NCBI GenBank assembly: GCA_963782555.1
Contig: CAWAKB010000002.1
Coordinates: 28,308 to 92,307, forward strand
Direction of reading: 5' to 3'
Source of the DNA: an uncultured Alphaproteobacteria bacterium
Lineage (GTDB): Bacteria; Pseudomonadota; Alphaproteobacteria; Rhizobiales; Hyphomicrobiaceae
Length of the DNA: 64,000 nucleotides
This document shows, one piece after another, positions 43,840 through 54,080 of the stretch; positions within the stretch are counted from its first letter, which is position 1; every line of letters starts with the position of its first letter. The notes beneath the pieces are model-generated. The model was given only the letters and a program-made list of their open reading frames with translations, was not told the DNA's origin and did not search any database. The translations under genes were made by a program, and so were the position numbers.

Positions 43840-44520
43840 ATGCCATTCATCGAGGCGAAGCCGTTCCCGTTTCAGTTCGATTTCGATCACGCCGCTCTCA
43901 TCTGCATCGATATGCAGCGGGATTTCTGCCTGCCGGGCGGCTTTGCCGAATCCCTGGGCGACCACATCGAGAACGTTCAGCCCTGCATTCCGGTCATCGC
44001 CAAGCTGCAAGCCGCCTTTCGCAGGTGCAGGCTGCCGATCATCCACACGAAGGAATGTCACAAGCCGGATCTCTCCGACCTTCCCGCTGCCAAGCTCAAC
44101 CGCGGCAACCCGAAGCGAAAGATCGGTGAGCCTGGACCGATGGGCCGGATACTCATCGATGGTGAACCAGGGACGGACTTCATCCCCGAGAACGAGCCTT
44201 GGCTATACGAGCACGTCATCAGCAAACCGGGCAAGGACGCGTTCTACGCCACCGACCTCGACGAGTATCTGATGCGGCGGAAGATCAGCGGATTGGTGAT
44301 CACGGGCGTGACGACCGAGGTCTGCGTGCAGACGACCATGCGTTGTGCCAACGACCGCGGCTACGACTGCCTCCTGGTCGAGGACGGCACCGACAGCTAT
44401 TTCCCCGAGTTCAAGGAGGTCACGCTGAGATCATTGGTAGCGCAGGGCGCCATCGTCGGCTGGACGTGCAAGTCCGACGCCGTCCTCAGCGTGTTGGCCA
44501 AGGAGCGTGGACAGGTGTGA
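43840..44520 (+). CDS. trtA: Isochorismatase-like cysteine hydrolase, triuret hydrolase (TrtA)-like
   Basis: IDMQRDF, GGFAESLG, RGNP, IGEPGPMGRIL, KPGK, TTEVCVQT, DSYFP, QGAIVGW. Confidence 0.7.
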   Translation: MPFIEAKPFPFQFDFDHAALICIDMQRDFCLPGGFAESLGDHIENVQPCIPVIAKLQAAFRRCRLPIIHTKECHKPDLSDLPAAKLNRGNPKRKIGEPGPMGRILIDGEPGTDFIPENEPWLYEHVISKPGKDAFYATDLDEYLMRRKISGLVITGVTTEVCVQTTMRCANDRGYDCLLVEDGTDSYFPEFKEVTLRSLVAQGAIVGWTCKSDAVLSVLAKERGQV

Positions 44521-44593
44521 CGCGCGCCTCACTTCTTGAGGTGGTGATTACCGCCTTGTCGGCCGCGGCGGGCGGATGGCATGGAGCCTGTAG

Positions 44594-45562
44594 ATGAAAC
44601 CGCCCGTCGACTACATCTTCCCTCCGGTCGAAACGGGCCGCGTTCCCTACTGGCGGCTCGTCTTGCGCGGCTGCTCGCAGCTTTGCTTTCAGAGCAACGA
44701 GCTGACGGGCTTGTTGTTCCTGGCGGCGGTTTTCGTCGCTTCACCGATCAGCGCGGCCTACTTGCTTGTTGCCGGCATCCTAGCGCCGGCCGGACGCATG
44801 CTGTTCGGCGAGCCCAAGGATATCGTGGAGAGCGGTCTGCCTAGCCTCAACCCGGGCCTAATCGCGCTGGCCCTGCCGGCCTTCTTTCATACCGGGTGGT
44901 CGAACGTCGGCATGTGGGGCGTGCTCGTCGCCGGCATCGTCGTCACTAGCCTGCTGGTGAGCCTGCTGCTGACGTTCGTACCGTTTCCGATCTCGGCGTT
45001 TCCGTTCCTGCTTGTCTTCTGGGCGCTTTCCGCGCTCGCCCCGCACACAGATGTCTTGCAGCCGATAACTCACACGCCGATCGACTTTACATTTCATCCA
45101 CTCGTTGCCGTATTGCGCAGTCTCGGCCAAGCACTGTTCTCACCCAGCATCTGGTCGGGCGTTCTGTTTCTCATCGGCGTACTGCTGAGCAACTGGCGCC
45201 ACGGCGTCATCGCTCTCATGGGCGCCGTGATCGGCACGCTGGTCTCCTACTATTACCGCGACGTCGATGCTGGGAGCGTCAATCTAGGCCTCTATGGGTT
45301 CAACGGTGTCCTGAGCGCCGTATCGGTCTTCGTCATTTGCGGCGGCCAGTTGCGGCTCGCCATCCTCGGCGCGCTTATCGCCACCATCCTAACACCGGCG
45401 ATTGCCGACCTCGGCCTGCTGACGCTCGCAGCGCCATTTGTCTTCACAGCCTGGCTCATGCTCGCCCTAGGCTGGGTCGGAGACAATTGGTTCGATGAGC
45501 CGCCCGCACGTGTTGCAGCGGCGGATGCTGCCACACAACCTTCGCATAGCCGAGGAGAGTGA
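44594..45562 (+). CDS. Urea transporter (UT) family protein
   Basis: LRGCSQLCFQSN and LRSLGQALFSP internal repeats, LGLYGFNGVL; multi-TM. Confidence 0.85.
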   Translation: MKPPVDYIFPPVETGRVPYWRLVLRGCSQLCFQSNELTGLLFLAAVFVASPISAAYLLVAGILAPAGRMLFGEPKDIVESGLPSLNPGLIALALPAFFHTGWSNVGMWGVLVAGIVVTSLLVSLLLTFVPFPISAFPFLLVFWALSALAPHTDVLQPITHTPIDFTFHPLVAVLRSLGQALFSPSIWSGVLFLIGVLLSNWRHGVIALMGAVIGTLVSYYYRDVDAGSVNLGLYGFNGVLSAVSVFVICGGQLRLAILGALIATILTPAIADLGLLTLAAPFVFTAWLMLALGWVGDNWFDEPPARVAAADAATQPSHSRGE

Positions 45563-45565
45563 TCC

Positions 45566-45934
45566 ATGTCCGAACAGGCCGCTTCGATCGTGCTGCCCGC
45601 TCTTATGGAGTACGCGACCAAGCTGCGTCATACCGAAGGCTGGGAGCAGTTCCGTCCGGGCGTGACCGCACGCTGGTTGTACGGAGACTTTCATGCCGGA
45701 CCCTCGGCGGTGCTGCTGCGCTACGAGCCCGGTGCGCGCGTCGCCGAGCACGAACACGTCGGCTACGAGCACATGCTCGTCCTCGACGGCGACCAGTTCG
45801 ACGAGCACGGCACGTACCCAGCCGGCAGCTTCGTCATCAATCCGCCTGGCACGCGGCACTCTCCGGGCAGCAAGAGTGGCTGCGTCGCGCTTCTGATCTA
45901 TGAGAAGCCCGTACGCTTCGTCGCGCCAGAATAG
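45566..45934 (+). CDS. ChrR-like cupin protein
   Basis: LLRYEPGARVAEHEHVGYEHMLVLDG, NPPGTRHSP. Confidence 0.85.
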   Translation: MSEQAASIVLPALMEYATKLRHTEGWEQFRPGVTARWLYGDFHAGPSAVLLRYEPGARVAEHEHVGYEHMLVLDGDQFDEHGTYPAGSFVINPPGTRHSPGSKSGCVALLIYEKPVRFVAPE

Positions 45935-46079
45935 TCTTGAGGCGCTCAAGTTCGAGCCCAATCTAGGGGTCTAGCTCGAGGGCTTGGGACTACTCGCGAA
46001 GCTCGGCTTCGAGGCCTTCCAACGCACCACTTGGGTGCGCCAGAAGGAACTAACTTCGTTACCTCGTATCGGCTGTCAA

Positions 46080-46385
46080 TCAGGCAGCCTTTGTCTCGGC
46101 CGGGTCGTCGCGGATGATGACCGTGCTGACGACCGGAAAAATCTGATCGCCAGGCATGCCGACGCACCGCGCGTGCTCGCGGATCGATTGAGGATCGCGC
46201 GCCTCATAGATGCAGACCGTCCCGATGCGGCCGTTGGGCTCCTCGACCACATAGCTGCGGATCCAGCGGACACGGTCGGGCAACTCCTCGTTGCCGATCC
46301 GGGCCGACTTGGCTCCGGCGGCTTCGAGCTCTTGCATATCCGCCCAGGCGCTCGGGCGGCGAACGCCGTAGAGATCCAAGCGCAC
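46080..46385 (-). CDS. DUF4242 family protein, copy 2 (TTG where copy 1 has ATG)
   Basis: WIRSYV, GTVCIYEA, IREHARCVGMP; near-identical to 46781-47080. Confidence 0.75.
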   Translation of the reverse strand: MRLDLYGVRRPSAWADMQELEAAGAKSARIGNEELPDRVRWIRSYVVEEPNGRIGTVCIYEARDPQSIREHARCVGMPGDQIFPVVSTVIIRDDPAETKAA

Positions 46386-46460
46386 CTACATGAACGCCTC
46401 TGGAACCGGCAGCGTCGGGCCAAAAGCAGAAGCGCAGGTGGCCTCGCCAGCCGGCGCCGT

Positions 46461-46685
46461 CTATTGCCGACGCAGAAACTTGAGACCGGCCTCGGTCACC
46501 ACCACTTGATCGCCTTCGCCAGGCACGCCTCGGCGCTCGACGAAGCCACGGTCCGTCGCATCCTCCCACACTGTCAGTCGCGGGCAGGATGTGCGCCACA
46601 CCTCGATGACCTCGGAATAGGCGCGCGGCTCCTTTGCGACCCATTCGATGAGATCGCGCACGAGAGGATCAAGCGTGTCGGCCAT
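46461..46685 (-). CDS. Small conserved hypothetical protein (WRTSCPRL motif, winged-helix-like)
   Basis: GGAG SD; LIEWV...YSEVIEVWRTSCPRLTVWEDA...VTEAG. Confidence 0.75.
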   Translation of the reverse strand: MADTLDPLVRDLIEWVAKEPRAYSEVIEVWRTSCPRLTVWEDATDRGFVERRGVPGEGDQVVVTEAGLKFLRRQ

Positions 46686-46780
46686 CTGGACACTCCTGGC
46701 AACTTCGGCGAGCCGCGTACCAACGGCAGAATAGCGTCGAAGTGTCGCTCAGAATTGGACAGGCCGTGGCCGGCTTTCAA

Positions 46781-47080
46781 TCAGGCGGCCTTTGTCTCGG
46801 CCGGGTCGTCGCGGATGATGACCGTGCTGACGACCGGGAAAATCTGGTCGCCCGGCATGCCGACGCGCCGCGCATGCGCACGGATCAATTCGGGATCCCG
46901 CGCCTCATAGACGCAGAACGTCCCGATGCGGCCGTCCGGCTCCTCGACCACGTAGCTGCGGATCCAGCGGACCCGGTCGGGCATCTCCTCGTTGCCGATC
47001 CGGGCCGACTTGGCTCCGGCGGCTTCGAGCTCCTGCATATCCGCCCAGGCACTCGGGCGGCGAACGACGTAGAGATCCAT
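46781..47080 (-). CDS. DUF4242 family protein, copy 1
   Basis: AGGAG SD; WIRSYV, GTFCVYEA, IRAHARRVGMP. Confidence 0.85.
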   Translation of the reverse strand: MDLYVVRRPSAWADMQELEAAGAKSARIGNEEMPDRVRWIRSYVVEEPDGRIGTFCVYEARDPELIRAHARRVGMPGDQIFPVVSTVIIRDDPAETKAA

Positions 47081-47150
47081 GGCTGTGCTCCTATTTGAGT
47101 GAAATATAGGATTGAGCGCGGCGTGCTCGTTGCGCCCGGTGAATTCGGGA

Positions 47151-47981
47151 TCAGCTTCTCTTGGTGATCACCGCCTCGAGATATTCGCTGTGCACGACCA
47201 GCGTGCCGTCGGCGGCAACGTTGAACTGGTCGAGGAGAGCGTAGAGATCGGTCTCGAGCGCCTCGCGTGCCTCAGGATCGATCGCCGCGAATGCTTTGAG
47301 GACGGGACCATAGTACGTGCGGAAGATCTCGAGCCAATGCTCGGCCGACTTGTAGCGGAAGACGAAATTCCGGCTCTCCGCCGCGACGCTCGCCTTCGCG
47401 CCAAACAGGTCGTCGAGATACGCCCTCTTGCCCCACAGCGCCGGTGACTTCACGCCCGGTGCCGGCGGGACGTATTTCCCGATGGTCTTGAACACGTGGC
47501 CGATGAAGCCCTCCGGCGTCCAGTTGGCCAATCCGATCGTTCCGCCCGGGCGGCAGACGCGCATGAGCTCGCGCGCGGCCTGCGCCTGGTTCGCCGTGAA
47601 CATGACGCCGAAGGTCGAAAGGACGACATCAAAAGAGGCGTCCGGGAACGGAAGCGCCTCGGCGTCAGCTACCTCGAAGGCGACGGGCAAACGCTCGGCT
47701 GCGGCCCGCACGCGCGCGCGAGTGAGCAGCGCGCCGATGTAGTCCGTCGACACCACGTCGGCGAAGCGCCGCGCCGCGGCGAGCGTCGCATTGCCGTTGC
47801 CGGCGGCGACGTCGAGGACGCGTTGGCCCGCGCGCAGATCGACGGCCTCGCACAACGTCTCGCCGACGATCTGCACGGTGGTGCCGATAATGGCATAGTC
47901 GCCGGAGCTCCAGGCGGCCCGCTGGCGCGCTTTAGTGGCGGCGAGATTCATGGTGGTGGGGGTGGCCATTTGAACGTTCAT
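47151..47981 (-). CDS. Class I SAM-dependent methyltransferase
   Basis: WSSGDY, VLDVAAGNG, DAEALPFPDASFDVVLSTFG, PGGTIGLANWTPEG. Confidence 0.92.
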   Translation of the reverse strand: MNVQMATPTTMNLAATKARQRAAWSSGDYAIIGTTVQIVGETLCEAVDLRAGQRVLDVAAGNGNATLAAARRFADVVSTDYIGALLTRARVRAAAERLPVAFEVADAEALPFPDASFDVVLSTFGVMFTANQAQAARELMRVCRPGGTIGLANWTPEGFIGHVFKTIGKYVPPAPGVKSPALWGKRAYLDDLFGAKASVAAESRNFVFRYKSAEHWLEIFRTYYGPVLKAFAAIDPEAREALETDLYALLDQFNVAADGTLVVHSEYLEAVITKRS

Positions 47982-48151
47982 TGGTCTCGTCCTTCGTTGC
48001 GCGCTTGTGCTTTCCCGAGTGCGATGGCCGGGACAAAACCGGCCATCTCGCTGAGCGCGTTATGGCCTTCGCGCCGGCTAGAGCGTGAGTCACGCCCATC
48101 CACTTCGATGTCGCTGTGGGTCAACGCGGATCGGGGCGCGCCGTACGCGAA

Positions 48152-48174
48152 ATGGCCGGGACGAGCCCGGCCAT
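48152..48174 (-). terminator. Terminator-like hairpin after the large secreted protein; similar hairpins at 49349-49371, 49874-49896 and 48024-48046
   Basis: ATGGCCGGG-loop-CCCGGCCAT followed by TTTCG on the minus strand. Confidence 0.65.
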
Positions 48175-48197
48175 CGCGTCGTTCTTGGATCCACGGC

Positions 48198-49170
48198 CTA
48201 ATACTGGGTCGTGGTCGAGGTTGTGGGGGGCGGCGCAGGACCGCCCTGGAACCCGTGCGCCACCCCGTGGCCGAAGTCGGAAATGCCTTTAATGACGTTA
48301 TCGACGCCCGAGGCGAACCCGGAGTCGAATTGGTCTGAGCAGCACGGTTTCCCTGGGGGTGGCGGCGGCGGCGGGGCGATGGCGACGGCCGCGCGGCCTT
48401 CGCCAATAACGGCTCCAACTTGAACGCTCTTGTCACCGCCGATGCCCTTGGCGCCGGAAATCGTCAGCGAGCCGCCAGACAACGTCTGCGAATTCGGAGC
48501 CGTTGGAGACGGTGATCGTGCCGGGACGGCTGGAGGACACGGTCACGCCGCCTGCGCCGTCGCGGATCTGCACCGTGTTCGCACCATTGGAGATGGTGAC
48601 CGTGCCCGGAGGCGGCGACGGGATGGGATGCACCGTATTCTCGGCGCCGGGGCCGGTCACGCTGCCAGGCGCCGCCGAACCGGTGTTGGCTTGGCCGTCG
48701 AGCCCCTTCCTTCCGGCGATGCCTTTGCCAAACACATACCCATCGGCCGTGGTGGCGGTGCCGGTCGTGGTGGTGGTGGTGCCGGTTGTCGTGGTGCCGG
48801 TCGTCTTGTCCTTGTCGGTCGTCTTCTCGGCCTGCTTTGCTTCCTTCTCCTTCATCTTCTCGGCGCGCTTTGCCTCCTTCTGCGCCTGCTTCTCAGCGCG
48901 CTTGGCCTCCCTCTCCGCCTTCTTCTCGGCGTGCTTGGAGTCCTTGTCCTTATGCTTGTCGGAGCTCTTGTCCTTGCGGACTTCGCGAAGCGAATGCTTG
49001 TCACTGCGATCGCGACCGGAGTCGCGGCTCTTCATCTGGTGGTCGGACCCGCGGTCGGAGCCGTGGTCGTGATTGCCGTGGGCGAGGGCGCTCCCGGCGG
49101 CGAGAAGCGTTCCGGCCGCAACCATTGCGGCAAGTCGGGTCAAAGAGGGGATCAGTCGAGGGGTGTTCAT
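48198..49170 (-). CDS. Secreted low-complexity protein (His/Lys/Thr/Pro-rich); frameshift near 48493
   Basis: Signal peptide MNTPRLIP...ALA; ORF 48433-49266 continues into 48198-48482 as NGSNSQTLSGGSLTISG. Confidence 0.75.
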
Positions 49171-49403
49171 GGCATAGTTCCTATGCTGGGGGAGCGAGCT
49201 GCTCCGCATCAAAAGCGGCTCCGTAGCGCGCGTTATGCGGCCCGCGCCCGCCAAAGCGTGAGTCACGCTCGTCCACTTCGATGTCGCTGTCAGTCAATGC
49301 GGATCGGCCCGGCCCTGCGAGCAGATGCGTGCCGGAGCCCCAAACGAAATGGCCGGGGCGAGCCCGGCCATCTCACGTTTGCGGTCGCTGCGATCCCAGG
49401 TTT

Positions 49404-49694
49404 CTACTGCAGGCTCGAGGGGCGTTGGTGCGGGTTGCCGCCACCGCGGCTTGGTACCACAGTATCGGGGATTATGACCGCGTTCGGGGGCGGCGACACG
49501 ATCGAATGACCGGTATACGCGACGCCGGGGCCAGTCGCGGTGCCGGGAGCCTGAGTCGCCCTGATGCGGGAGTGCATCGGGCCAACGACGCCTCTGCCCT
49601 TGGCCAGGGCGGCGTCGGCGACGATGAGTATCGTACCCGCCGCAACCATTGCGGCAAGTCGGGTCACATAGGGGATCAGTCTAGGGGTGTTCAT
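49404..49694 (-). CDS. Small secreted protein paralogous to 48198-49170
   Basis: Same signal peptide; shared APG..TGPG...T.H.I.SPPP..V.I motif. Confidence 0.75.
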   Translation of the reverse strand: MNTPRLIPYVTRLAAMVAAGTILIVADAALAKGRGVVGPMHSRIRATQAPGTATGPGVAYTGHSIVSPPPNAVIIPDTVVPSRGGGNPHQRPSSLQ

Positions 49695-50013
49695 GGGCTT
49701 AGTTCCTGTGCTGGGGGAGCGGGTTGCTCCGCATCAAAAGTGGCTCCGGTGCGCGCGTTATGCGGCCCGCGCCGGCCCAAGCGTGAGTCACGCTCGTCCA
49801 CTTCAATGTCGCTGTCGGTCAATGCGCAGCGGGGCGGCCCTGCGAGCAGATGCGTGCCGGAGCCCCAAACGAAATGGCCGGGGCGAGCCCGGCCATCTTG
49901 TTTTTTGTCGGTCGCGGCGAACCGCATCGAGCGCTTTCGGCGTTTCTCAGCCACAAGTCCCTTATTCCGACTGGCGTGCGTCGCAAATTCCTTCCGGTGA
50001 ACTTGAGAGATCA

Positions 50014-50142
50014 CTACGCATTCAGAACGACGAAGACGCCGATGCCTATTGCCGGACCCACTAAGGTGGCCAGAACAATCATTGCAAATGACCTGAGCAC
50101 CGAGCCAAAGCGGCCGTCTTGGTTCTGTGTCACGGCGAGCAT
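50014..50142 (-). CDS. 42-aa membrane peptide
   Basis: ATG follows the repeated TAGGAAC SD; single hydrophobic segment. Confidence 0.5.
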   Translation of the reverse strand: MLAVTQNQDGRFGSVLRSFAMIVLATLVGPAIGIGVFVVLNA

Positions 50143-50310
50143 CTGGGCCTTGTTCCTATGCTGGGGGAGCGAACCGCTCTCTTGAAAGAGCGAATCTGCA
50201 GCGCGCGTTATGCGGCCCACGCGCGGGCAAGCGTGAGTCGCGCTCGGCCACTTCAATGTCGCTGTCAGTCAGTGCTGATCAGCGTCGTCGATCTTTGGAG
50301 AACGGCCCTG

Positions 50311-51387
50311 CTACCGGCTAAAGTGATGAGCCCGTGTGGCGGCGGCGCGCACGCCTGTCGGCGTATCCCCGAAACGGGTGCGAAAGGCGCGGTGGAAGTA
50401 AGAAGTGTCTGCAAAGCCGGCGCGGTGCGCGATATCGGCCACCTTCAGCGCGGCGTAGCCCGTATTCGTCAGCATCTCGAGCGCCTCGAGGAGGCGCCGC
50501 TCGAGCACGTGCTCATAGAACGTCTTGGTCGTCTCCTCGAGCAGACGGTGAACCTGACGTCCCGTAATGCCGAGCTTAAGCCCGACACCCTCGGCCGAGA
50601 GGCCCGGGGAGGCGAAATCACGCTCGATCGCCTTCAATATCGCCGCGGTTCGCGCGGCCTTGAGCCCGCGGCCCTTGATGAGCTCGAGGCAATTGCGATC
50701 GGCGCCGACGATAAGCATCAGAAGATCCACCAGGTGCGTGCCGAAGGCCTCACGCACGTCCGGGTCTGGGCTGCCGGCCACGATCGCGAACGAATTGAGG
50801 TATTGCACCATGAGCTGCATCGCGGGCAGCTCGGCGGGAATACTCATCGGCGTTAGGTCGCGCCCCCGAGCCAAGCCGCTTTTGAGACGGCCAATCGGCA
50901 CTTTGATGCCCCACACCTCGAACGGCGAGACAGCCTCGCATCCGCCGGGGAAGGAGCCGTCATAGAGGAAGCCGTTCCCGGGCCGGAACTCGTGGAGGAT
51001 GCCGGCTTGCCCGTTCGTGGGACCGTGGGTCCGCCCCACAAACAAGGTCAACGCGTCATCGCAATCGGAGACGTGACGCCGCGTTCGCGCATAGACCGAC
51101 GCCGGGGCGGCGATCCTCGAGACGCCGACGCTTCCGGCCTTGAGCAGCTCGATGCTGCCATCGAACATGCCTTCTGCACGGTTCGCAACGTCGACTTGGA
51201 AGAGGTATTGCCTGAAATTCTCTCGAAAAACCTCAAATCGGTCGCGTTCCGGAAGGGCGTGCGTCGTCAACCGCAGACGATGGGGCGCCTCGGCCCCTGT
51301 CGCCTGCGGAGAACAAAGTGCCTCTTCGGGGGCGCCAGGTCGACGCGTGCTCATGCCATTCCGGTTGTCGGCACTGAAGCTGGTCAT
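50311..51387 (-). CDS. AraC family transcriptional regulator
   Basis: LPERDRFEVFRE N-terminus; C-terminal HTH ITGRQVHRL...IAHRAGFADTSYFHRAFRTRFGDTP. Confidence 0.92.
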   Translation of the reverse strand: MTSFSADNRNGMSTRRPGAPEEALCSPQATGAEAPHRLRLTTHALPERDRFEVFRENFRQYLFQVDVANRAEGMFDGSIELLKAGSVGVSRIAAPASVYARTRRHVSDCDDALTLFVGRTHGPTNGQAGILHEFRPGNGFLYDGSFPGGCEAVSPFEVWGIKVPIGRLKSGLARGRDLTPMSIPAELPAMQLMVQYLNSFAIVAGSPDPDVREAFGTHLVDLLMLIVGADRNCLELIKGRGLKAARTAAILKAIERDFASPGLSAEGVGLKLGITGRQVHRLLEETTKTFYEHVLERRLLEALEMLTNTGYAALKVADIAHRAGFADTSYFHRAFRTRFGDTPTGVRAAATRAHHFSR

Positions 51388-51509
51388 AGGTCATCTAGGT
51401 TGCTCGCAGGCATCGCAATCCTGCGAAGGGGCTAAGACCTCGCGCTCGCGCAATCGCGAGACATGCCTTGAGGTCGGCCGGACACTGACGACGTCGTGAT
51501 CGCCCGGCG

Positions 51510-51525
51510 TCCCCCGATCGGGGGA
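51510..51525. promoter_or_regulatory. Perfect 16-bp palindrome, candidate operator upstream of araC
   Basis: TCCCCCGATCGGGGGA. Confidence 0.55.
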
Positions 51526-51558
51526 GGCCGGTCGCGATGTCTGGTCACATGTCCGGGA

Positions 51559-52695
51559 TCAGTCCGTGAATGGATTGGAGAAGCCGGCGACGAGCTTGAC
51601 GAGATCGGCCTGCCGGCTTGCGCCCGTCTTGTGGTAGAGGCGCTTGAGGTGGGTTTTGACGGTGCTTTCGGCGACGCCGAGGGCTTCCGCCACATCCGGC
51701 GCGCCACCGACCTCGACGACGGCTAGCAGGACTTGCAGCTCGGTCGGGGTCAACTTGTACGTTCGCCCGATGGCGTCGGCAGACGACGGCGGCTGCAATG
51801 CCGCTTTGCGGACGAACACGGCTGCGGCGGCCGTGTAGGCGGTACCGGCGCGGCGACGTTCGCCAGAGTTTAGCGGGAGCACATGCGCGACGTAGCGATC
51901 GCCATCGCGCGCGGTGAGCGGGAATGCGATCCCCTTGATGCCGAGTGCGGCGTCGCCCTTGCCGGCAAGGGTGAAGATATCGCGCAGGGCCTGGTTGACC
52001 CGCGCATCGCCGGTCACGAGGAAGCCTCCGAATACATGGAGGATGTCGTTGCCGGCCAGGATATCGCGCGCCGCCCTGTTGGCATGGACGACCCGGCCTC
52101 TGGCATCCACGAGGAACAGACCCGCGCTCAGTCCGTCGAGCGTCTCTGCCAACATTGCCGCTTGCGCATCCTTGAGATCGACCGACTTTCCGATCAGCGC
52201 CGCCCGGCGCACATGCGGTACGACGAGCGCCAATCGCCGGCGCATCTCCTCGTCGACCATACCGCCGGCCTTATTCGTGACAACTCTGAGAAGCGTATTA
52301 CTGTTTGCCGATTTCTCCAGCACTGCGCTTGCGGCGTCGACCCAACCCTGAGGCCTTGCCCATTCCTGATAGAAGCGCCCCTTAAGATAGTCATCGTAGG
52401 GCACCAGATCGGGGACGCTCGCGACCTGCTCGGGGTCGAACAGCGGCGCCGTCGCGAGGGGATCGAATTTCGAATATGTCTCGGAATAGACCTTGATGTA
52501 GTGCGGGTCGAAGGCGGCATCGTAGAAGACGTTGACGTTTCTGCTCGTGGTGTCTTTCAGGGCAAGGCCGCCGGCCTGACCGCCGACGAGCGAGACGATC
52601 CTCGCGACAACGCCGGTCCATAGTGTGGGATCGAGCGCCGCATCGTAGATGTCGACGACGACCTGGGTTAGCCCTCGATACTCATCCTCGCGCAT
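51559..52695 (-). CDS. LuxR-family HTH regulator with PAS-like central domain
   Basis: IYDAALDPTLW, LFLVDARGRVVHAN, LTPTELQVL...STVKTHLKRLYHKTGASRQADLV. Confidence 0.9.
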   Translation of the reverse strand: MREDEYRGLTQVVVDIYDAALDPTLWTGVVARIVSLVGGQAGGLALKDTTSRNVNVFYDAAFDPHYIKVYSETYSKFDPLATAPLFDPEQVASVPDLVPYDDYLKGRFYQEWARPQGWVDAASAVLEKSANSNTLLRVVTNKAGGMVDEEMRRRLALVVPHVRRAALIGKSVDLKDAQAAMLAETLDGLSAGLFLVDARGRVVHANRAARDILAGNDILHVFGGFLVTGDARVNQALRDIFTLAGKGDAALGIKGIAFPLTARDGDRYVAHVLPLNSGERRRAGTAYTAAAAVFVRKAALQPPSSADAIGRTYKLTPTELQVLLAVVEVGGAPDVAEALGVAESTVKTHLKRLYHKTGASRQADLVKLVAGFSNPFTD

Positions 52696-52942
52696 GGGGC
52701 TCACCCAAGAAACGGGCTTCAAGCTCGACACTCATCATCCCAACCGCGAAAATGAGCGCCGGGACGTCGCTATTGATCCAGTTGGCAAAAGCGTCCAACT
52801 CTATTTGGGTGCAGCGGGCCCGTACAGGACCGTTTATATGACGCCTTCTTAAGGCCTCGTCGTAAATAGGCTGTGCCCCTGGTAACTGCGCATTACTGGG
52901 CTTCAGCGTTGGCACGTGACCTGAGACCCTTCCTTCGTCCAA

Positions 52943-53817
52943 TCAGAGGGAGAGTCCTGGGTTAGTGTTTTGCCCATTGCCGGTCGTCGCGGCAAGGGCC
53001 AGGTGGTGGCTGCAGAACTCCTCCGGTGTCCGGTTGGCGAGCGCCGAATTGGGCCGTACACGATTGTAATCGTCGCGCCACGCGGCGAGCACCGCGCGGG
53101 CCTCGGCGAGCGACGAGAAGACCGACTCGTTCAGGCACTCATCCCGGAGCCGGCCGTTGAAACTCTCGACAAACGCGTTCTGTTGCGGCTTGCCCGGCTG
53201 GATGTAGTGCCAGTCGACGCCCGTTCCCTTGCTCCAGGCCAGGATTGCCATGCTGGTGAGTTCGGTGCCGTTGTCGGAAACGCACGTCATCGGCTTGCCT
53301 CGGACCGCAATGATGGCATGGAGCTCTCGCGCAACGCGCGAGCGCCCGAGAGCGAGGTATCTGCGACGAGCGCCAGGCATTCGCGCGTGCAGTCGTCGAC
53401 AACCGCAAGAGCGCGGAACCGGCGGCTGTCCGTGAATGTGTCTGAGACGAAATCCAACGACCAGCGCTCGTTCGGCCGCGACGGAAGAGCCAAGGGGGCA
53501 CGCAGCCCGAGAGCCCGCTTGCGGCCACCACGCTTCCTCACCTGCAAACCTTCCTCGCGGTAGAGCCGCCGGAACCGCTTCTGGTTCATTGCCAAGCCTT
53601 CTCTCTCCAGCAGGAAATGCAATCGCCGGTAGCCAAACCGGCGACGCACCTGCGCCAGCTCCCGAATGCGAAGCCGAACGGCAAAATCGTCCGGGCGCAG
53701 GCTCCGGTAGCGCACCGTCGACCGATCAAGACCTAAGGCTTGGCACGCCCGCCGCTCGCTCACCTCGTGTGTCGTGCACACGTGAACCACGACCTGCCGT
53801 TTAGCGGCGGGCGTCAC
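52943..53817 (-). CDS. IS3 transposase OrfB (DDE); extra frameshift near 53340
   Basis: [52 protein letters not shown]. Confidence 0.9.
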
Positions 53818-54080
53818 CACTTTCGGCTGTTGATGTCCTTCAGGATCGCGTTGTCGAGCATCGTCTCGGCGAGCAGCTTCTTAAGCTTCGCGTTCTCGTC
53901 CTCGAGCGACTTCAGCCGCTTTGCGTCCGACACGTCCAGCCCGCCGAACTTCGACTTCCACTTGTAGAACGTCGCACCGCTGACCCCGTGCTTGCGGCAA
54001 ACATCCGCTGTCGGACGCCCTGCCTCCTGTTCCCGCAAGATCGCTATGATCTGCTCTTCCGAAAATCTGCTCTTACGCAT
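53814..54080 (-). CDS. IS3 transposase OrfA
   Basis: MRKSRFSEEQII...CRKHGVSGATFYKWKSKFGG...LEDENAKLKKLLA; ends CGA AAG TGG TGA. Confidence 0.93.
   Translation of the reverse strand: MRKSRFSEEQIIAILREQEAGRPTADVCRKHGVSGATFYKWKSKFGGLDVSDAKRLKSLEDENAKLKKLLAETMLDNAILKDINSRKW

What the first reader, a model, noticed from the sequence alone, without database searches (positions are those of the whole stretch)
48054..50270. Cassette array: one conserved promoter-like element copied four times, each driving a different gene behind a LuxR/AraC pair
Seen (minus strand): each unit is GACAGCGACATYGAAGTGG, a palindrome AGCGTGACTCACGCT, a CATAAC -10-like hexamer (no good -35; the palindrome overlaps that position), and in three units a variable hairpin plus GCTCCCCCAGCAYAGGAAC before the ATG. 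Units feed a 42-aa peptide, a 96-aa secreted protein, a roughly 320-aa secreted protein and the methyltransferase cluster, separated by terminator hairpins. Known: AraC and LuxR activators bind sites overlapping -35. Inference: an undescribed locally amplified regulon, in which promoter-plus-signal-peptide cassettes duplicate and diversify their payload.
Basis: partly seen in the sequence, partly recalled or inferred. Interest (0 to 1): 0.8.

Follow-up and report, generated by a model that had tools for sequence, protein, structure and literature searches.

The report
AraC-linked promoter module copied four times
Four copies of a conserved ~70-bp promoter-plus-operator module sit in a row behind an AraC-type regulator gene in a Hyphomicrobium-like bacterium, most likely placing a small membrane peptide, two secreted proteins and a methyltransferase operon under that regulator; it is a solid but fairly ordinary lineage-specific regulon.

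Summary
Four minus-strand copies of one element lie at 50273-50207, 49823-49757, 49298-49232 and 48125-48059, and nowhere else in the 4.2-Mb genome.

Each copy has three parts:
- a 45-bp conserved block;
- a 16-18-bp spacer of variable sequence;
- a CATAAC hexamer that fits the alphaproteobacterial RpoD -10 consensus (GCtANAWC).

I collected 25 copies from about nine related populations. Every copy lies in a locus headed by an orthologue of the AraC gene (50311-51387) and on its strand; the first copy is 50-230 bp after that gene.

In the genus, 5 of 39 genomes have the orthologue, and all five have the element. One of them (G062) was tested as a prediction. A homologous payload gene without AraC (Methyloceanibacter) has no element.

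The LuxR neighbour is not conserved. Genome G021 has five elements and no LuxR orthologue.

There is no support for an RNA structure. The block is more conserved (81%) than araC fourfold-degenerate sites (68%).

The block carries a 21-bp-spaced direct repeat ending at about -37, which is the geometry of XylS at Pm. The best reading is an AraC/XylS-type activator-dependent promoter, spread by local tandem duplication and promoter capture. Binding, transcription start and inducer are untested.

Moderate interest; a new member of a known kind.

The parts
50311..51387 (-). AraC/XylS-family regulator gene (358 aa; AraC_binding_2 N-terminal domain plus HTH_18/HTH_AraC). Proposed cognate activator of the four modules.
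   Evidence: Pfam. The best NCBIfam hit is FeaR at 72 bits, far below its 199-bit cut-off. Orthologues of 67-81% identity stand directly upstream of the first element in every locus found.
50207..50273 (-). Module A: conserved operator block 50273-50229, spacer 50228-50213, -10-like CATAAC 50212-50207. It lies 38 nt after the araC stop codon and drives the 42-aa peptide.
50152..50170 (-). Leader motif GCTCCCCCAGCATAGGAAC of unit A. It contains the AGGA ribosome-binding site and forms the 3' arm of a short GAGCG/CGCTC hairpin.
50014..50142 (-). Payload A: 42-aa peptide with one hydrophobic, membrane-helix-like stretch. Orthologues of 81-83% identity occur in two other genomes.
49870..49897 (-). 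Terminator-like hairpin (ATGGCCGGG-N5-CCCGGCCAT followed by TTTCGTTT) after payload A. This hairpin family is unique to the locus.
   Evidence: (family D4).
49757..49823 (-). Module B: operator block 49823-49779, spacer, CATAAC 49762-49757. Leader motif at 49720-49702.
49404..49694 (-). Payload B: 96-aa protein with an N-terminal signal peptide (MNTPRLIP...AALA). It is a short paralogue of payload C.
   Evidence: (families D5 and D6).
49345..49372 (-). Terminator-like hairpin after payload B.
49232..49298 (-). Module C: operator block 49298-49254, spacer, CATAAC 49237-49232. Leader motif at 49195-49177.
48198..49170 (-). Payload C: large secreted paralogue. Layout: signal peptide, His/Asp-rich stretch, K/E-rich 11-aa repeats, Thr-rich linker, beta domain. 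It is read in frame 0 down to 48433 and in the +1 frame from about 48490 to 48198, with one extra base at GAATTC 48495-48490.
48148..48175 (-). Terminator-like hairpin after payload C.
48059..48125 (-). Module D: operator block 48125-48081, spacer, CATAAC 48064-48059 (GCCATAAC matches GCtANAWC at all strongly conserved positions). Its leader holds a hairpin at 48047-48020 homologous to the terminator hairpins but lacking the T tail, and it has no GCTCCCCC motif.
46080..47981 (-). Payload D operon: class I SAM methyltransferase (47981-47151), SCO4226-like protein (47080-46781), 74-aa ORF (46685-46461) and a second SCO4226-like protein (46385-46080).
51559..52731 (-). LuxR/GerE-family regulator with a weak PAS-like match. 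It neighbours araC here but is not conserved with the element.

Best explanation
Each unit is a promoter that depends on the AraC-family protein encoded just upstream (50311-51387).

Anatomy, numbered on the assumption that transcription starts about 7 nt after the hexamer:
- A -10 element CATAAC at -12 to -7. It is of the alphaproteobacterial RpoD type, ending in C.
- No usable -35. The invariant CACGCT lies where a -35 would be, 17 bp upstream of the hexamer.
- A 45-bp operator from about -73 to -29. It holds two 15-bp direct repeats whose starts are 21 bp apart: TTGACTGACAGCGAC (distal) and GTGGACGAGCGYGAC (proximal). The proximal repeat ends at about -37.

Proposed mechanism: two AraC monomers, each with two helix-turn-helix motifs, bind the two repeats. 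The proximal monomer touches RNA polymerase and replaces the missing -35 contact, as XylS does at Pm and AraC does at araI.

Proposed origin: the module spread inside the locus by tandem segmental duplication of terminator, promoter, leader and signal-peptide codons. Deletion or recombination then placed it in front of unrelated genes.

Result: a self-contained local regulon comprising a 42-aa membrane peptide, a family of secreted His-rich/beta-domain proteins, and a methyltransferase/SCO4226-like operon. In relatives it also includes a GNAT-like protein, an M16 peptidase, and an AurF-like protein with OsmC.

Shown: the repeats, their conservation, the fixed geometry, and exclusive linkage to the AraC orthologue.
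Inferred: binding, activation rather than repression, the transcription start, the half-site assignment, and the inducer (unknown).
For: 1. The element is unique and local. There are 4 copies in the genome, all in the araC locus and on the araC strand.
2. It co-occurs with the AraC orthologue. Orthologues of at least 70% identity are in 5 of 39 genus genomes, and all 5 carry the element directly after araC. G062 was checked after the prediction was made.
3. Independent metagenome contigs found by motif (L025, L026, L029, L030) or through the payload protein (L032, L033, L034) all show AraC followed by the element.
4. Methyloceanibacter loci that have a payload homologue but no AraC have no element.
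5. No match was found in 400 genomes spread over the order, and only this genus matched among 185,579 species genomes.
6. The block is under selection. Among araC-proximal units of 8 loci, operator identity is 81%, araC fourfold-degenerate sites 68%, the spacer 50%, and the 40 nt upstream 28%.
7. The geometry is rigid. The spacer varies in sequence but not in length (16-18 bp from CACGCT to the hexamer). The hexamer is CATAAC, TAAAAC, TAGCAC or GATAAC, which fits tANAWC of the Caulobacter RpoD -10 GCtANAWC (PMC8144410).
8. The best self-similarity of the block is at a 21-bp offset: 0.424, p = 0.005 for that offset and 0.04 over offsets 15-25. This matches the two 15-bp direct repeats bound by XylS (PMC5481539).
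9. No sigma-70 consensus promoter is present, which fits dependence on an activator.
10. The regulator has the AraC-family double helix-turn-helix domain and a cupin-like AraC_binding_2 domain.
Against: - There are no expression or binding data.
- The direct-repeat signal is only modest: 9-10 of 15 positions, p = 0.04 after correction.
- All copies are homologous, so the counts are not independent.
- The block also contains a 15-bp inverted repeat centred near -37, which could serve a different dimeric protein.
- AraC-family proteins can also repress.
- araC itself has no copy of the element upstream of it.
- The first unit has no terminator between it and araC, so read-through could contribute to its transcription.
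Confidence: 0.65

Rival explanations
1. The conserved inverted repeat (AGCGTGACTCACGCT, centred near -37) is the functional site. It would be bound by a dimeric regulator, either the neighbouring LuxR/GerE protein or another factor, instead of or in addition to AraC. For example, LuxR might act as a second input in the subclade that keeps it.
For: The inverted repeat is the strongest symmetric feature of the block, with a mean match of 0.65 over 8 pairs. Perfect versions occur only in loci that keep a LuxR gene (window, L034, L018: 5 of 10 units) and in none of about 10 units from LuxR-less loci. LuxR lies next to araC in the window, L018 and L034.
Against: The central pair is broken in 9 of 16 copies. 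The left arm varies while the right arm is fixed. G021 keeps five well-conserved elements but has no LuxR orthologue anywhere in a 94%-complete genome. In G033 the gene is frameshifted, and G062 has only a fragment. The link between perfect palindromes and LuxR rests on closely related loci, so it is not phylogenetically independent. A centre at -37 is unusual for LuxR-type activation.
Confidence: 0.12
2. The block is the promoter of an alternative (for example ECF-type) sigma factor, or the site of a global regulator encoded elsewhere. On this view the AraC linkage is only co-inheritance of neighbouring genes.
For: No canonical -35 is present. The conserved CACGCT lies exactly at the -35 position. 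The regulator of the payload homologue in Methyloceanibacter is a different protein, of the Trans_reg_C-TPR type, and a similar gene lies upstream of araC in L017.
Against: No sigma-factor gene is present in any of the loci. The conserved DNA runs 45 bp upstream of -29, far more than a sigma factor contacts. The element is never found away from the araC orthologue, in 0 of 34 genus genomes that lack it. The -10 hexamer fits the housekeeping RpoD consensus (PMC8144410).
Confidence: 0.1
3. The units are structured 5' leader RNAs (a riboswitch or attenuator) transcribed from a promoter further upstream.
For: The sequence contains palindromes and GC-rich inverted repeats. A conserved 28-nt leader motif with a small hairpin precedes the ribosome-binding site in 3 of the 4 units, and two GGAGC copies could compete for one GCTCC.
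Against: Rfam finds nothing at E <= 1. The RNAalifold consensus is -7.8 kcal/mol with a covariation term of -0.15. Changes in the proposed helices are not compensated. The 35-50 nt between each upstream terminator hairpin and the block is not conserved (28% identity), which leaves no room for a conserved promoter upstream. This argument does not exclude a post-transcriptional role for the downstream leader motif.
Confidence: 0.05
4. The repeats are functionless leftovers of recent tandem duplication, or copies of a small mobile element (MITE/REP-like).
For: Units B and C are 93% identical over 203 nt, including the preceding terminator and the signal-peptide codons. An IS3-family element lies about 200 bp beyond luxR.
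Against: The block is conserved across at least 9 populations, above the level of synonymous sites, while its flanks are randomised. It is retained in front of unrelated genes. There are only 4 copies, all in one orientation in one locus, none dispersed, and no terminal inverted repeats or target duplications.
Confidence: 0.03

Closest known systems
XylS at the Pm promoter (TOL plasmid) and AraC at araI1-I2: AraC/XylS-family class II activation
   Same: The regulator has a C-terminal double helix-turn-helix domain. The operator is about 45 bp, with two 15-bp direct repeats whose starts are 21 bp apart, and the proximal repeat abuts the -35 position of a promoter that has a weak or absent -35. 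PMC5481539 describes the two homologous 15-bp repeats, each with box A and box B, bound by two XylS monomers.
   Different: The half-site sequence is unrelated to TGCA-N6-GGTA. The regulator is only distantly related, its nearest named model being FeaR far below cut-off. Four promoters lie in tandem in one locus. Binding, inducer and sigma factor are unknown.
Putative mobile promoters / promoter reuse (Nijveen, Matus-Garcia and van Passel 2012, PMC3575422)
   Same: Highly similar upstream regions lie in front of non-homologous genes in one genome. Module D is 80-81% identical to modules B and C over 90 nt, yet it drives an unrelated operon. In G021 a module with a truncated signal-peptide stub precedes an M16 peptidase gene.
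   Different: Here the copies are strictly local, adjacent to their likely regulator, and conserved across species. The mechanism appears to be tandem duplication and deletion, not transposition or horizontal transfer.
E. coli FeaR (activator of tynA and feaB)
   Same: It is the best-scoring named family over nearly the full length, residues 69-349, with the same AraC_binding_2 plus HTH architecture.
   Different: The score is 72 bits against a cut-off of 199, so this protein is not an equivalog. The target genes are unrelated, with no amine oxidase or aldehyde dehydrogenase.
An AraC-linked 69-bp promoter module reported in Bacteroidota by an earlier report of this scan (e1-3227726)
   Same: The design is the same: several rigidly spaced promoter/operator copies before small stress or envelope genes, tightly linked to one AraC-family gene.
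   Different: The phylum and the sequences are unrelated. This is an AI note I did not check, so it is an analogy only.

Membership tests
AraC/XylS-type activator-dependent (class II) promoter | Cognate regulator with the AraC-family double helix-turn-helix DNA-binding domain | tested here: met
   HTH_18 at E = 8.8e-18, HTH_AraC at 5e-07, AraC_binding_2 at 6.6e-07.
AraC/XylS-type activator-dependent (class II) promoter | Operator made of two direct repeats of about 15-17 bp spaced two helical turns (about 21 bp) apart | tested here: inconclusive
   The 21-bp offset gives the best self-similarity (0.424; p = 0.005, or 0.04 after correction over offsets 15-25). The repeats share 9-10 of 15 positions. 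This is suggestive but not decisive.
AraC/XylS-type activator-dependent (class II) promoter | Proximal site abuts or overlaps -35, and the promoter lacks a good -35 | tested here: met
   Met on sequence geometry alone, which assumes that CATAAC is the -10. No sigma-70 consensus promoter is found. The proximal repeat ends 24 bp upstream of the hexamer, with fixed spacing of plus or minus 1 bp in 24 copies.
AraC/XylS-type activator-dependent (class II) promoter | The regulator binds the site and is required for transcription | not testable with these tools
   This needs EMSA or footprinting and reporter assays.
AraC/XylS-type activator-dependent (class II) promoter | Genomic linkage of regulator and sites across genomes | tested here: met
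   All 5 orthologue-bearing genus genomes have the element, and 0 of 34 without the orthologue do. Seven further contigs show AraC followed by the element.
FeaR (NCBIfam NF007243 equivalog) | Score at or above the curated cut-off of 199 bits | tested here: not met
   72 bits.
Known cis-regulatory RNA (Rfam) or any structured leader | Match to a covariance model, or helices supported by compensatory changes | tested here: not met
   No Rfam hit at E <= 1. The covariation term is -0.15, and the central pair of the palindrome is broken in 9 of 16 copies.
LuxR-type lux-box promoter | Inverted repeat of 18-20 bp centred near -42.5, together with a conserved cognate LuxR | tested here: not met
   The repeat is 15 bp, imperfect in most copies, and centred near -37. 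The LuxR orthologue is absent from G021, which has 5 elements.
MITE/REP-like mobile repeat | Dispersed copies, terminal inverted repeats or target duplications, presence/absence polymorphism at unrelated sites | tested here: not met
   The genome has only 4 copies, all in one locus and one orientation. The same is true in relatives.
Putative mobile promoter (PMP) in the sense of PMC3575422 | At least 80% identity over at least 50 nt upstream of genes with non-homologous coding sequences | tested here: met
   Module D against B and C is 80-81% over 90 nt, with unrelated coding sequences. Module A reaches only 68%.

The most novel reading that the evidence does not exclude
The locus may be a natural example of a modular promoter that recruits genes into a regulon without any transposase. 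The portable unit would be terminator, AraC operator, -10 and leader, sometimes with the first signal-peptide codons. It would be copied by local tandem duplication and then fused to unrelated genes. Examples are the methyltransferase operon here, an M16 peptidase behind a truncated signal-peptide stub in G021, and GNAT-like and AurF-like/OsmC genes elsewhere. In that case regulon membership turns over between sister species while operator and regulator stay fixed. A further untested layer would be the conserved 28-nt leader motif acting as a shared post-transcriptional operator.
Probability: 0.3. Interest if true: 0.5.

Novelty: new member of a known kind. Interest (0 to 1): 0.33.

Why it matters
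If confirmed, this gives a defined operator and a compact four-promoter regulon for an uncharacterised AraC-family regulator in Hyphomicrobium-like methylotrophs.

It would also link several protein families of unknown function to one signal:
- a 42-aa membrane peptide;
- a secreted His-rich/beta-domain family with no Pfam or PDB match;
- SCO4226-like proteins.

The locus shows clearly how regulons can grow by local promoter duplication and capture. The module, which has no -35 and probably depends fully on its activator, could also serve as an inducible expression part for alphaproteobacteria once the inducer is known.

None of this overturns current understanding.

Tried and rejected
- Rfam scan of 44000-54000 at E <= 1: nothing.
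- RNA structure tests on 16 copies, covering the palindrome, the GC hairpin around CATAAC and the RNAalifold consensus: no compensatory support. Leader folds show an invariant small hairpin but no variation to test it against.
- Sigma-70 consensus scan: 0 promoters. A TTGNCNS-like motif (TTGCCCG or TTGGCGG) occurs in some units but lies only 12 bp from the hexamer and is not conserved, so I rejected it as a -35.
- Sigma-54 (GG-N10-GC) and ECF-type readings, checked by eye: no fit.
- Mobile-element reading: rejected.
- Order-wide search with a sequence-only model: four weak hits at 21-25 bits. The two I inspected have no related sequence or genes nearby, so I treat them as spurious.
- FeaR binding-site literature: the paper I opened (PMC11542736) does not describe the operator.
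- Function of the secreted family: no Pfam or NCBIfam hit. The AlphaFold2 model has a confident beta domain, but no PDB fold matches at E <= 0.001.
I therefore had no RNA-seq evidence for a transcription start and could not check the frameshift or the repeats at read level.
Full report
**Observation**

On the minus strand of 48054-50273 there are four copies of one element.
- The repeat finder reports a 90-nt family of four copies (68-81% identity) and a 203-nt family in which units B and C are 93% identical.
- The four-way alignment shows three shared pieces: the conserved block, the CATAAC hexamer, and in three units GCTCCCCCAGCAYAGGAAC just before the ATG.

The payloads are as described:
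- a 42-aa hydrophobic peptide (50142-50014);
- a 96-aa protein with a signal peptide (49694-49404);
- a larger paralogue (49170-48198) that is split by one frameshift;
- an operon of a class I SAM methyltransferase, two SCO4226-like proteins and a 74-aa ORF (47981-46080).

GC-rich hairpins with T-rich tails follow the first three payloads (family D4). These hairpins occur nowhere else in the genome.

The element is also unique to this locus. A pattern scan and an nhmmer profile over the whole 4.2-Mb assembly find the four copies at 52-76 bits and nothing else above 12 bits.

**Anatomy from 25 copies**

Three searches gave 25 copies (24 complete, 23 of them distinct) in 12 contigs from roughly nine populations of one Hyphomicrobium-like genus:
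- motif searches in genus relatives;
- motif searches in 185,579 species genomes and in JGI metagenomes;
- contigs that encode homologues of the secreted payload.

The copies align almost without gaps. Each has three parts.
- A 45-bp block: GC-ATTGACTGACAGCGACATYGAAGTGGAYGRGCGYGACTCACGCTT.
- A spacer of free sequence and fixed length. It is 16-18 bp counted from CACGCT to the hexamer.
- A hexamer: CATAAC in most copies, TAAAAC in two, TAGCAC in one and GATAAC in one.

The hexamer ends in C rather than T. That fits the Caulobacter RpoD -10 consensus GCtANAWC (PMC8144410). Unit D (GCCATAAC) matches every strongly conserved position of it.

The simple sigma-70 scan finds no promoter in the region. 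With a 17-bp spacer, the -35 position is occupied by the invariant CACGCT, which is nothing like TTGACA.

**DNA site, not RNA**

- Rfam finds nothing at E <= 1.
- On 16 copies, the central pair of the 15-bp palindrome AGCGTGACTCACGCT is broken in 9 sequences. Its left arm varies while the right arm is fixed. The GC hairpin around CATAAC is likewise not maintained.
- The RNAalifold consensus is -7.8 kcal/mol, with a covariation term of -0.15.
- The 35-50 nt between each upstream terminator hairpin and the block are unconserved, so there is no room for a conserved promoter that would transcribe the block.

**The block is under selection**

I compared the araC-proximal unit of eight loci. Mean pairwise identity was:

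| Region | Identity |
|---|---|
| Operator block | 81% |
| araC fourfold-degenerate sites | 68% |
| Spacer | 50% |
| 40 nt upstream | 28% |

The block is therefore not merely a recent duplicate.

**Which regulator**

The gene at 50311-51387 encodes an AraC-family protein with AraC_binding_2 and HTH_18 domains. Its nearest named model is FeaR, far below cut-off.
- An orthologue (67-81% identity) stands directly upstream of the first element in every locus: L017, L018, L019/L029/L025, L026, L031, L032, L033 and L034. It is always on the same strand, 50-230 bp away.
- In the genus, 5 of 39 genomes have an orthologue of at least 70% identity. Four of them were the genomes already known to carry the element.
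- The fifth, G062, was then fetched as a test of the prediction. It has one element after araC, in front of a secreted-protein homologue.
- The 34 genus genomes without the orthologue have no element.
- Methyloceanibacter loci that carry a payload homologue next to a different regulator have none.
- A sequence-model scan of 400 genomes spread over the order gave only spurious weak hits.

The LuxR-type gene (51559-52731) is not part of the conserved system.
- It is adjacent to araC only in the window, L018 and L034.
- It is frameshifted in G033 and reduced to a fragment in G062.
- It has no orthologue anywhere in G021, which carries five good elements.

One residual hint remains. Perfect palindromes occur only in loci that keep LuxR, in 5 of 10 units against 0 of about 10 elsewhere. 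Those loci are close relatives, so the link is weak. I keep a LuxR input as a minor rival.

**Mechanism proposed**

The best self-similarity of the block is at an offset of 21 bp (0.424). This gives p = 0.005 for that offset and 0.04 after allowing for offsets 15-25.

It defines two 15-bp direct repeats, TTGACTGACAGCGAC and GTGGACGAGCGYGAC. They share TG-N4-GA-N2-G-Y-GAC.

If transcription starts about 7 nt after CATAAC, the repeats span about -72 to -58 and -51 to -37. The proximal repeat then abuts the missing -35.

This is the architecture described for XylS at Pm, where two homologous 15-bp direct repeats are each bound by one monomer (PMC5481539). From general knowledge, AraC at araI1-I2 is arranged the same way.

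I therefore read each unit as an AraC-dependent class II promoter. This step is inference.

**The leader**

Three window units, and the corresponding units in relatives, share about 28 nt: GAGCRGYTCGCTCCCCCAGCAYAGGAAC. This contains a 5-bp hairpin, a C-run and the AGGA ribosome-binding site.

The motif is shared between the peptide unit and the secreted-protein units, whose remaining leader and coding sequences are unrelated. Some constraint is therefore plausible. There is no sequence variation with which to test a structure, so its role is open.

**How the array arose**

- Units B and C share the preceding terminator, promoter, leader and 78 nt of signal-peptide codons. They also share an 88-nt internal core (families D1, D5 and D6). 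The 96-aa gene is thus a shortened paralogue of the large one, not a new payload.
- Units A and D share only the promoter with the others.
- The leader hairpin of unit D is a copy of the terminator hairpin without its T tail (family D4).
- In G021, one module carries the stub MNTPHRSRFAE* and then an M16 peptidase gene.
- In other populations, modules drive a GNAT-like gene or an AurF-like gene plus OsmC.

This is local tandem duplication with promoter capture. It corresponds to the 'promoter reuse' described by Nijveen et al. (PMC3575422), here confined to one locus and tied to its regulator.

**Payload function**

Function remains unknown.
- The secreted family has about 46 metagenomic homologues, all annotated as hypothetical. 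They are restricted to Hyphomicrobium- and Methyloceanibacter-like bacteria.
- An AlphaFold2 model of an intact member shows, in order: a signal peptide, a disordered His/Asp-rich stretch, one long K/E-rich helix, a Thr-rich linker, and a confident beta domain.
- That model has no PDB fold match.

**Verdict**

The palindrome is secondary to a direct repeat. The 'cassette' idea is right for promoter spread but overstated for payload diversity.

This is a new member of a well-known kind of system, and of moderate interest.

Noticed in passing
window 48490-48495 (GAATTC) within 48198-49170; L017 6910-7900 and 10350-11420; L018 8417-9420 and 10255-11300: All five large secreted paralogues in the three long-contig genomes carry exactly one frameshift. 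Three have it at the same codon (GA[AG]TTCG; one base fewer would give a CcrM-type GANTC site). The downstream frame stays open and conserved. Intact versions exist in L034 (396 aa) and in short-read contig L025. Homologues from ENA assemblies with contig_N-style record names (possibly long-read, not verified) are often broken, while those from JGI are intact. I favour systematic assembly error.
   Followed up: partly
window units B and C (49779-49823, 49254-49298), with L034, L018, L017, L029, L032 and L033: Perfect 15-bp palindromes in the operator occur only in loci that keep the LuxR gene (5 of 10 units) and in none of about 10 units from LuxR-less loci. The comparison is not phylogenetically independent. 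It could mean a LuxR input layered on the AraC site.
   Followed up: partly
L017 7939-9489 (genome G021): A complete module with its leader drives an 11-codon stub of the signal-peptide gene (MNTPHRSRFAE*), followed by a Tat-signal M16 peptidase gene. This is an apparent promoter-capture event. In L033 the M16 peptidase instead follows a GNAT-like gene that has its own module.
   Followed up: partly
window 48776-48974: Five tandem 33-nt repeats inside the large secreted gene encode 11-aa K/E-rich units (AEKxAxxEAKR). In the model of an intact homologue this region forms one long single helix (residues 71-136, pLDDT above 90).
   Followed up: partly
window 46070-46369 and 46771-47070: A 300-nt direct repeat (92% identity, 701 nt apart) duplicates the SCO4226-like gene within the methyltransferase operon. 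Relatives L017, L018 and L034 have a single copy.
   Followed up: partly
window 48020-48047: The leader of module D contains a hairpin homologous to the three terminator hairpins (79% identity) but without the T-rich tail. This suggests the promoter was inserted upstream of a former terminator, or recombined with one.
   Followed up: no
window 52943-54080: IS3-family transposase ORFs (an rve-type orfB and an orfA with helix-turn-helix) lie about 200 bp beyond the LuxR gene, at the edge of the locus. The locus sits on a 188-kb contig (C2).
   Followed up: no
L035 4246-6765 and L036 (Methyloceanibacter): A distant homologue of the secreted protein (about 40% identity) lies next to a divergent 524-aa Trans_reg_C-TPR regulator, with no AraC and no element. 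A similar 533-aa regulator lies upstream of araC in L017.
   Followed up: no
L018 5477-6611 (genome G033): The LuxR orthologue there is split by a frameshift at about residue 120. This is either another possible assembly error or gene decay.
   Followed up: no
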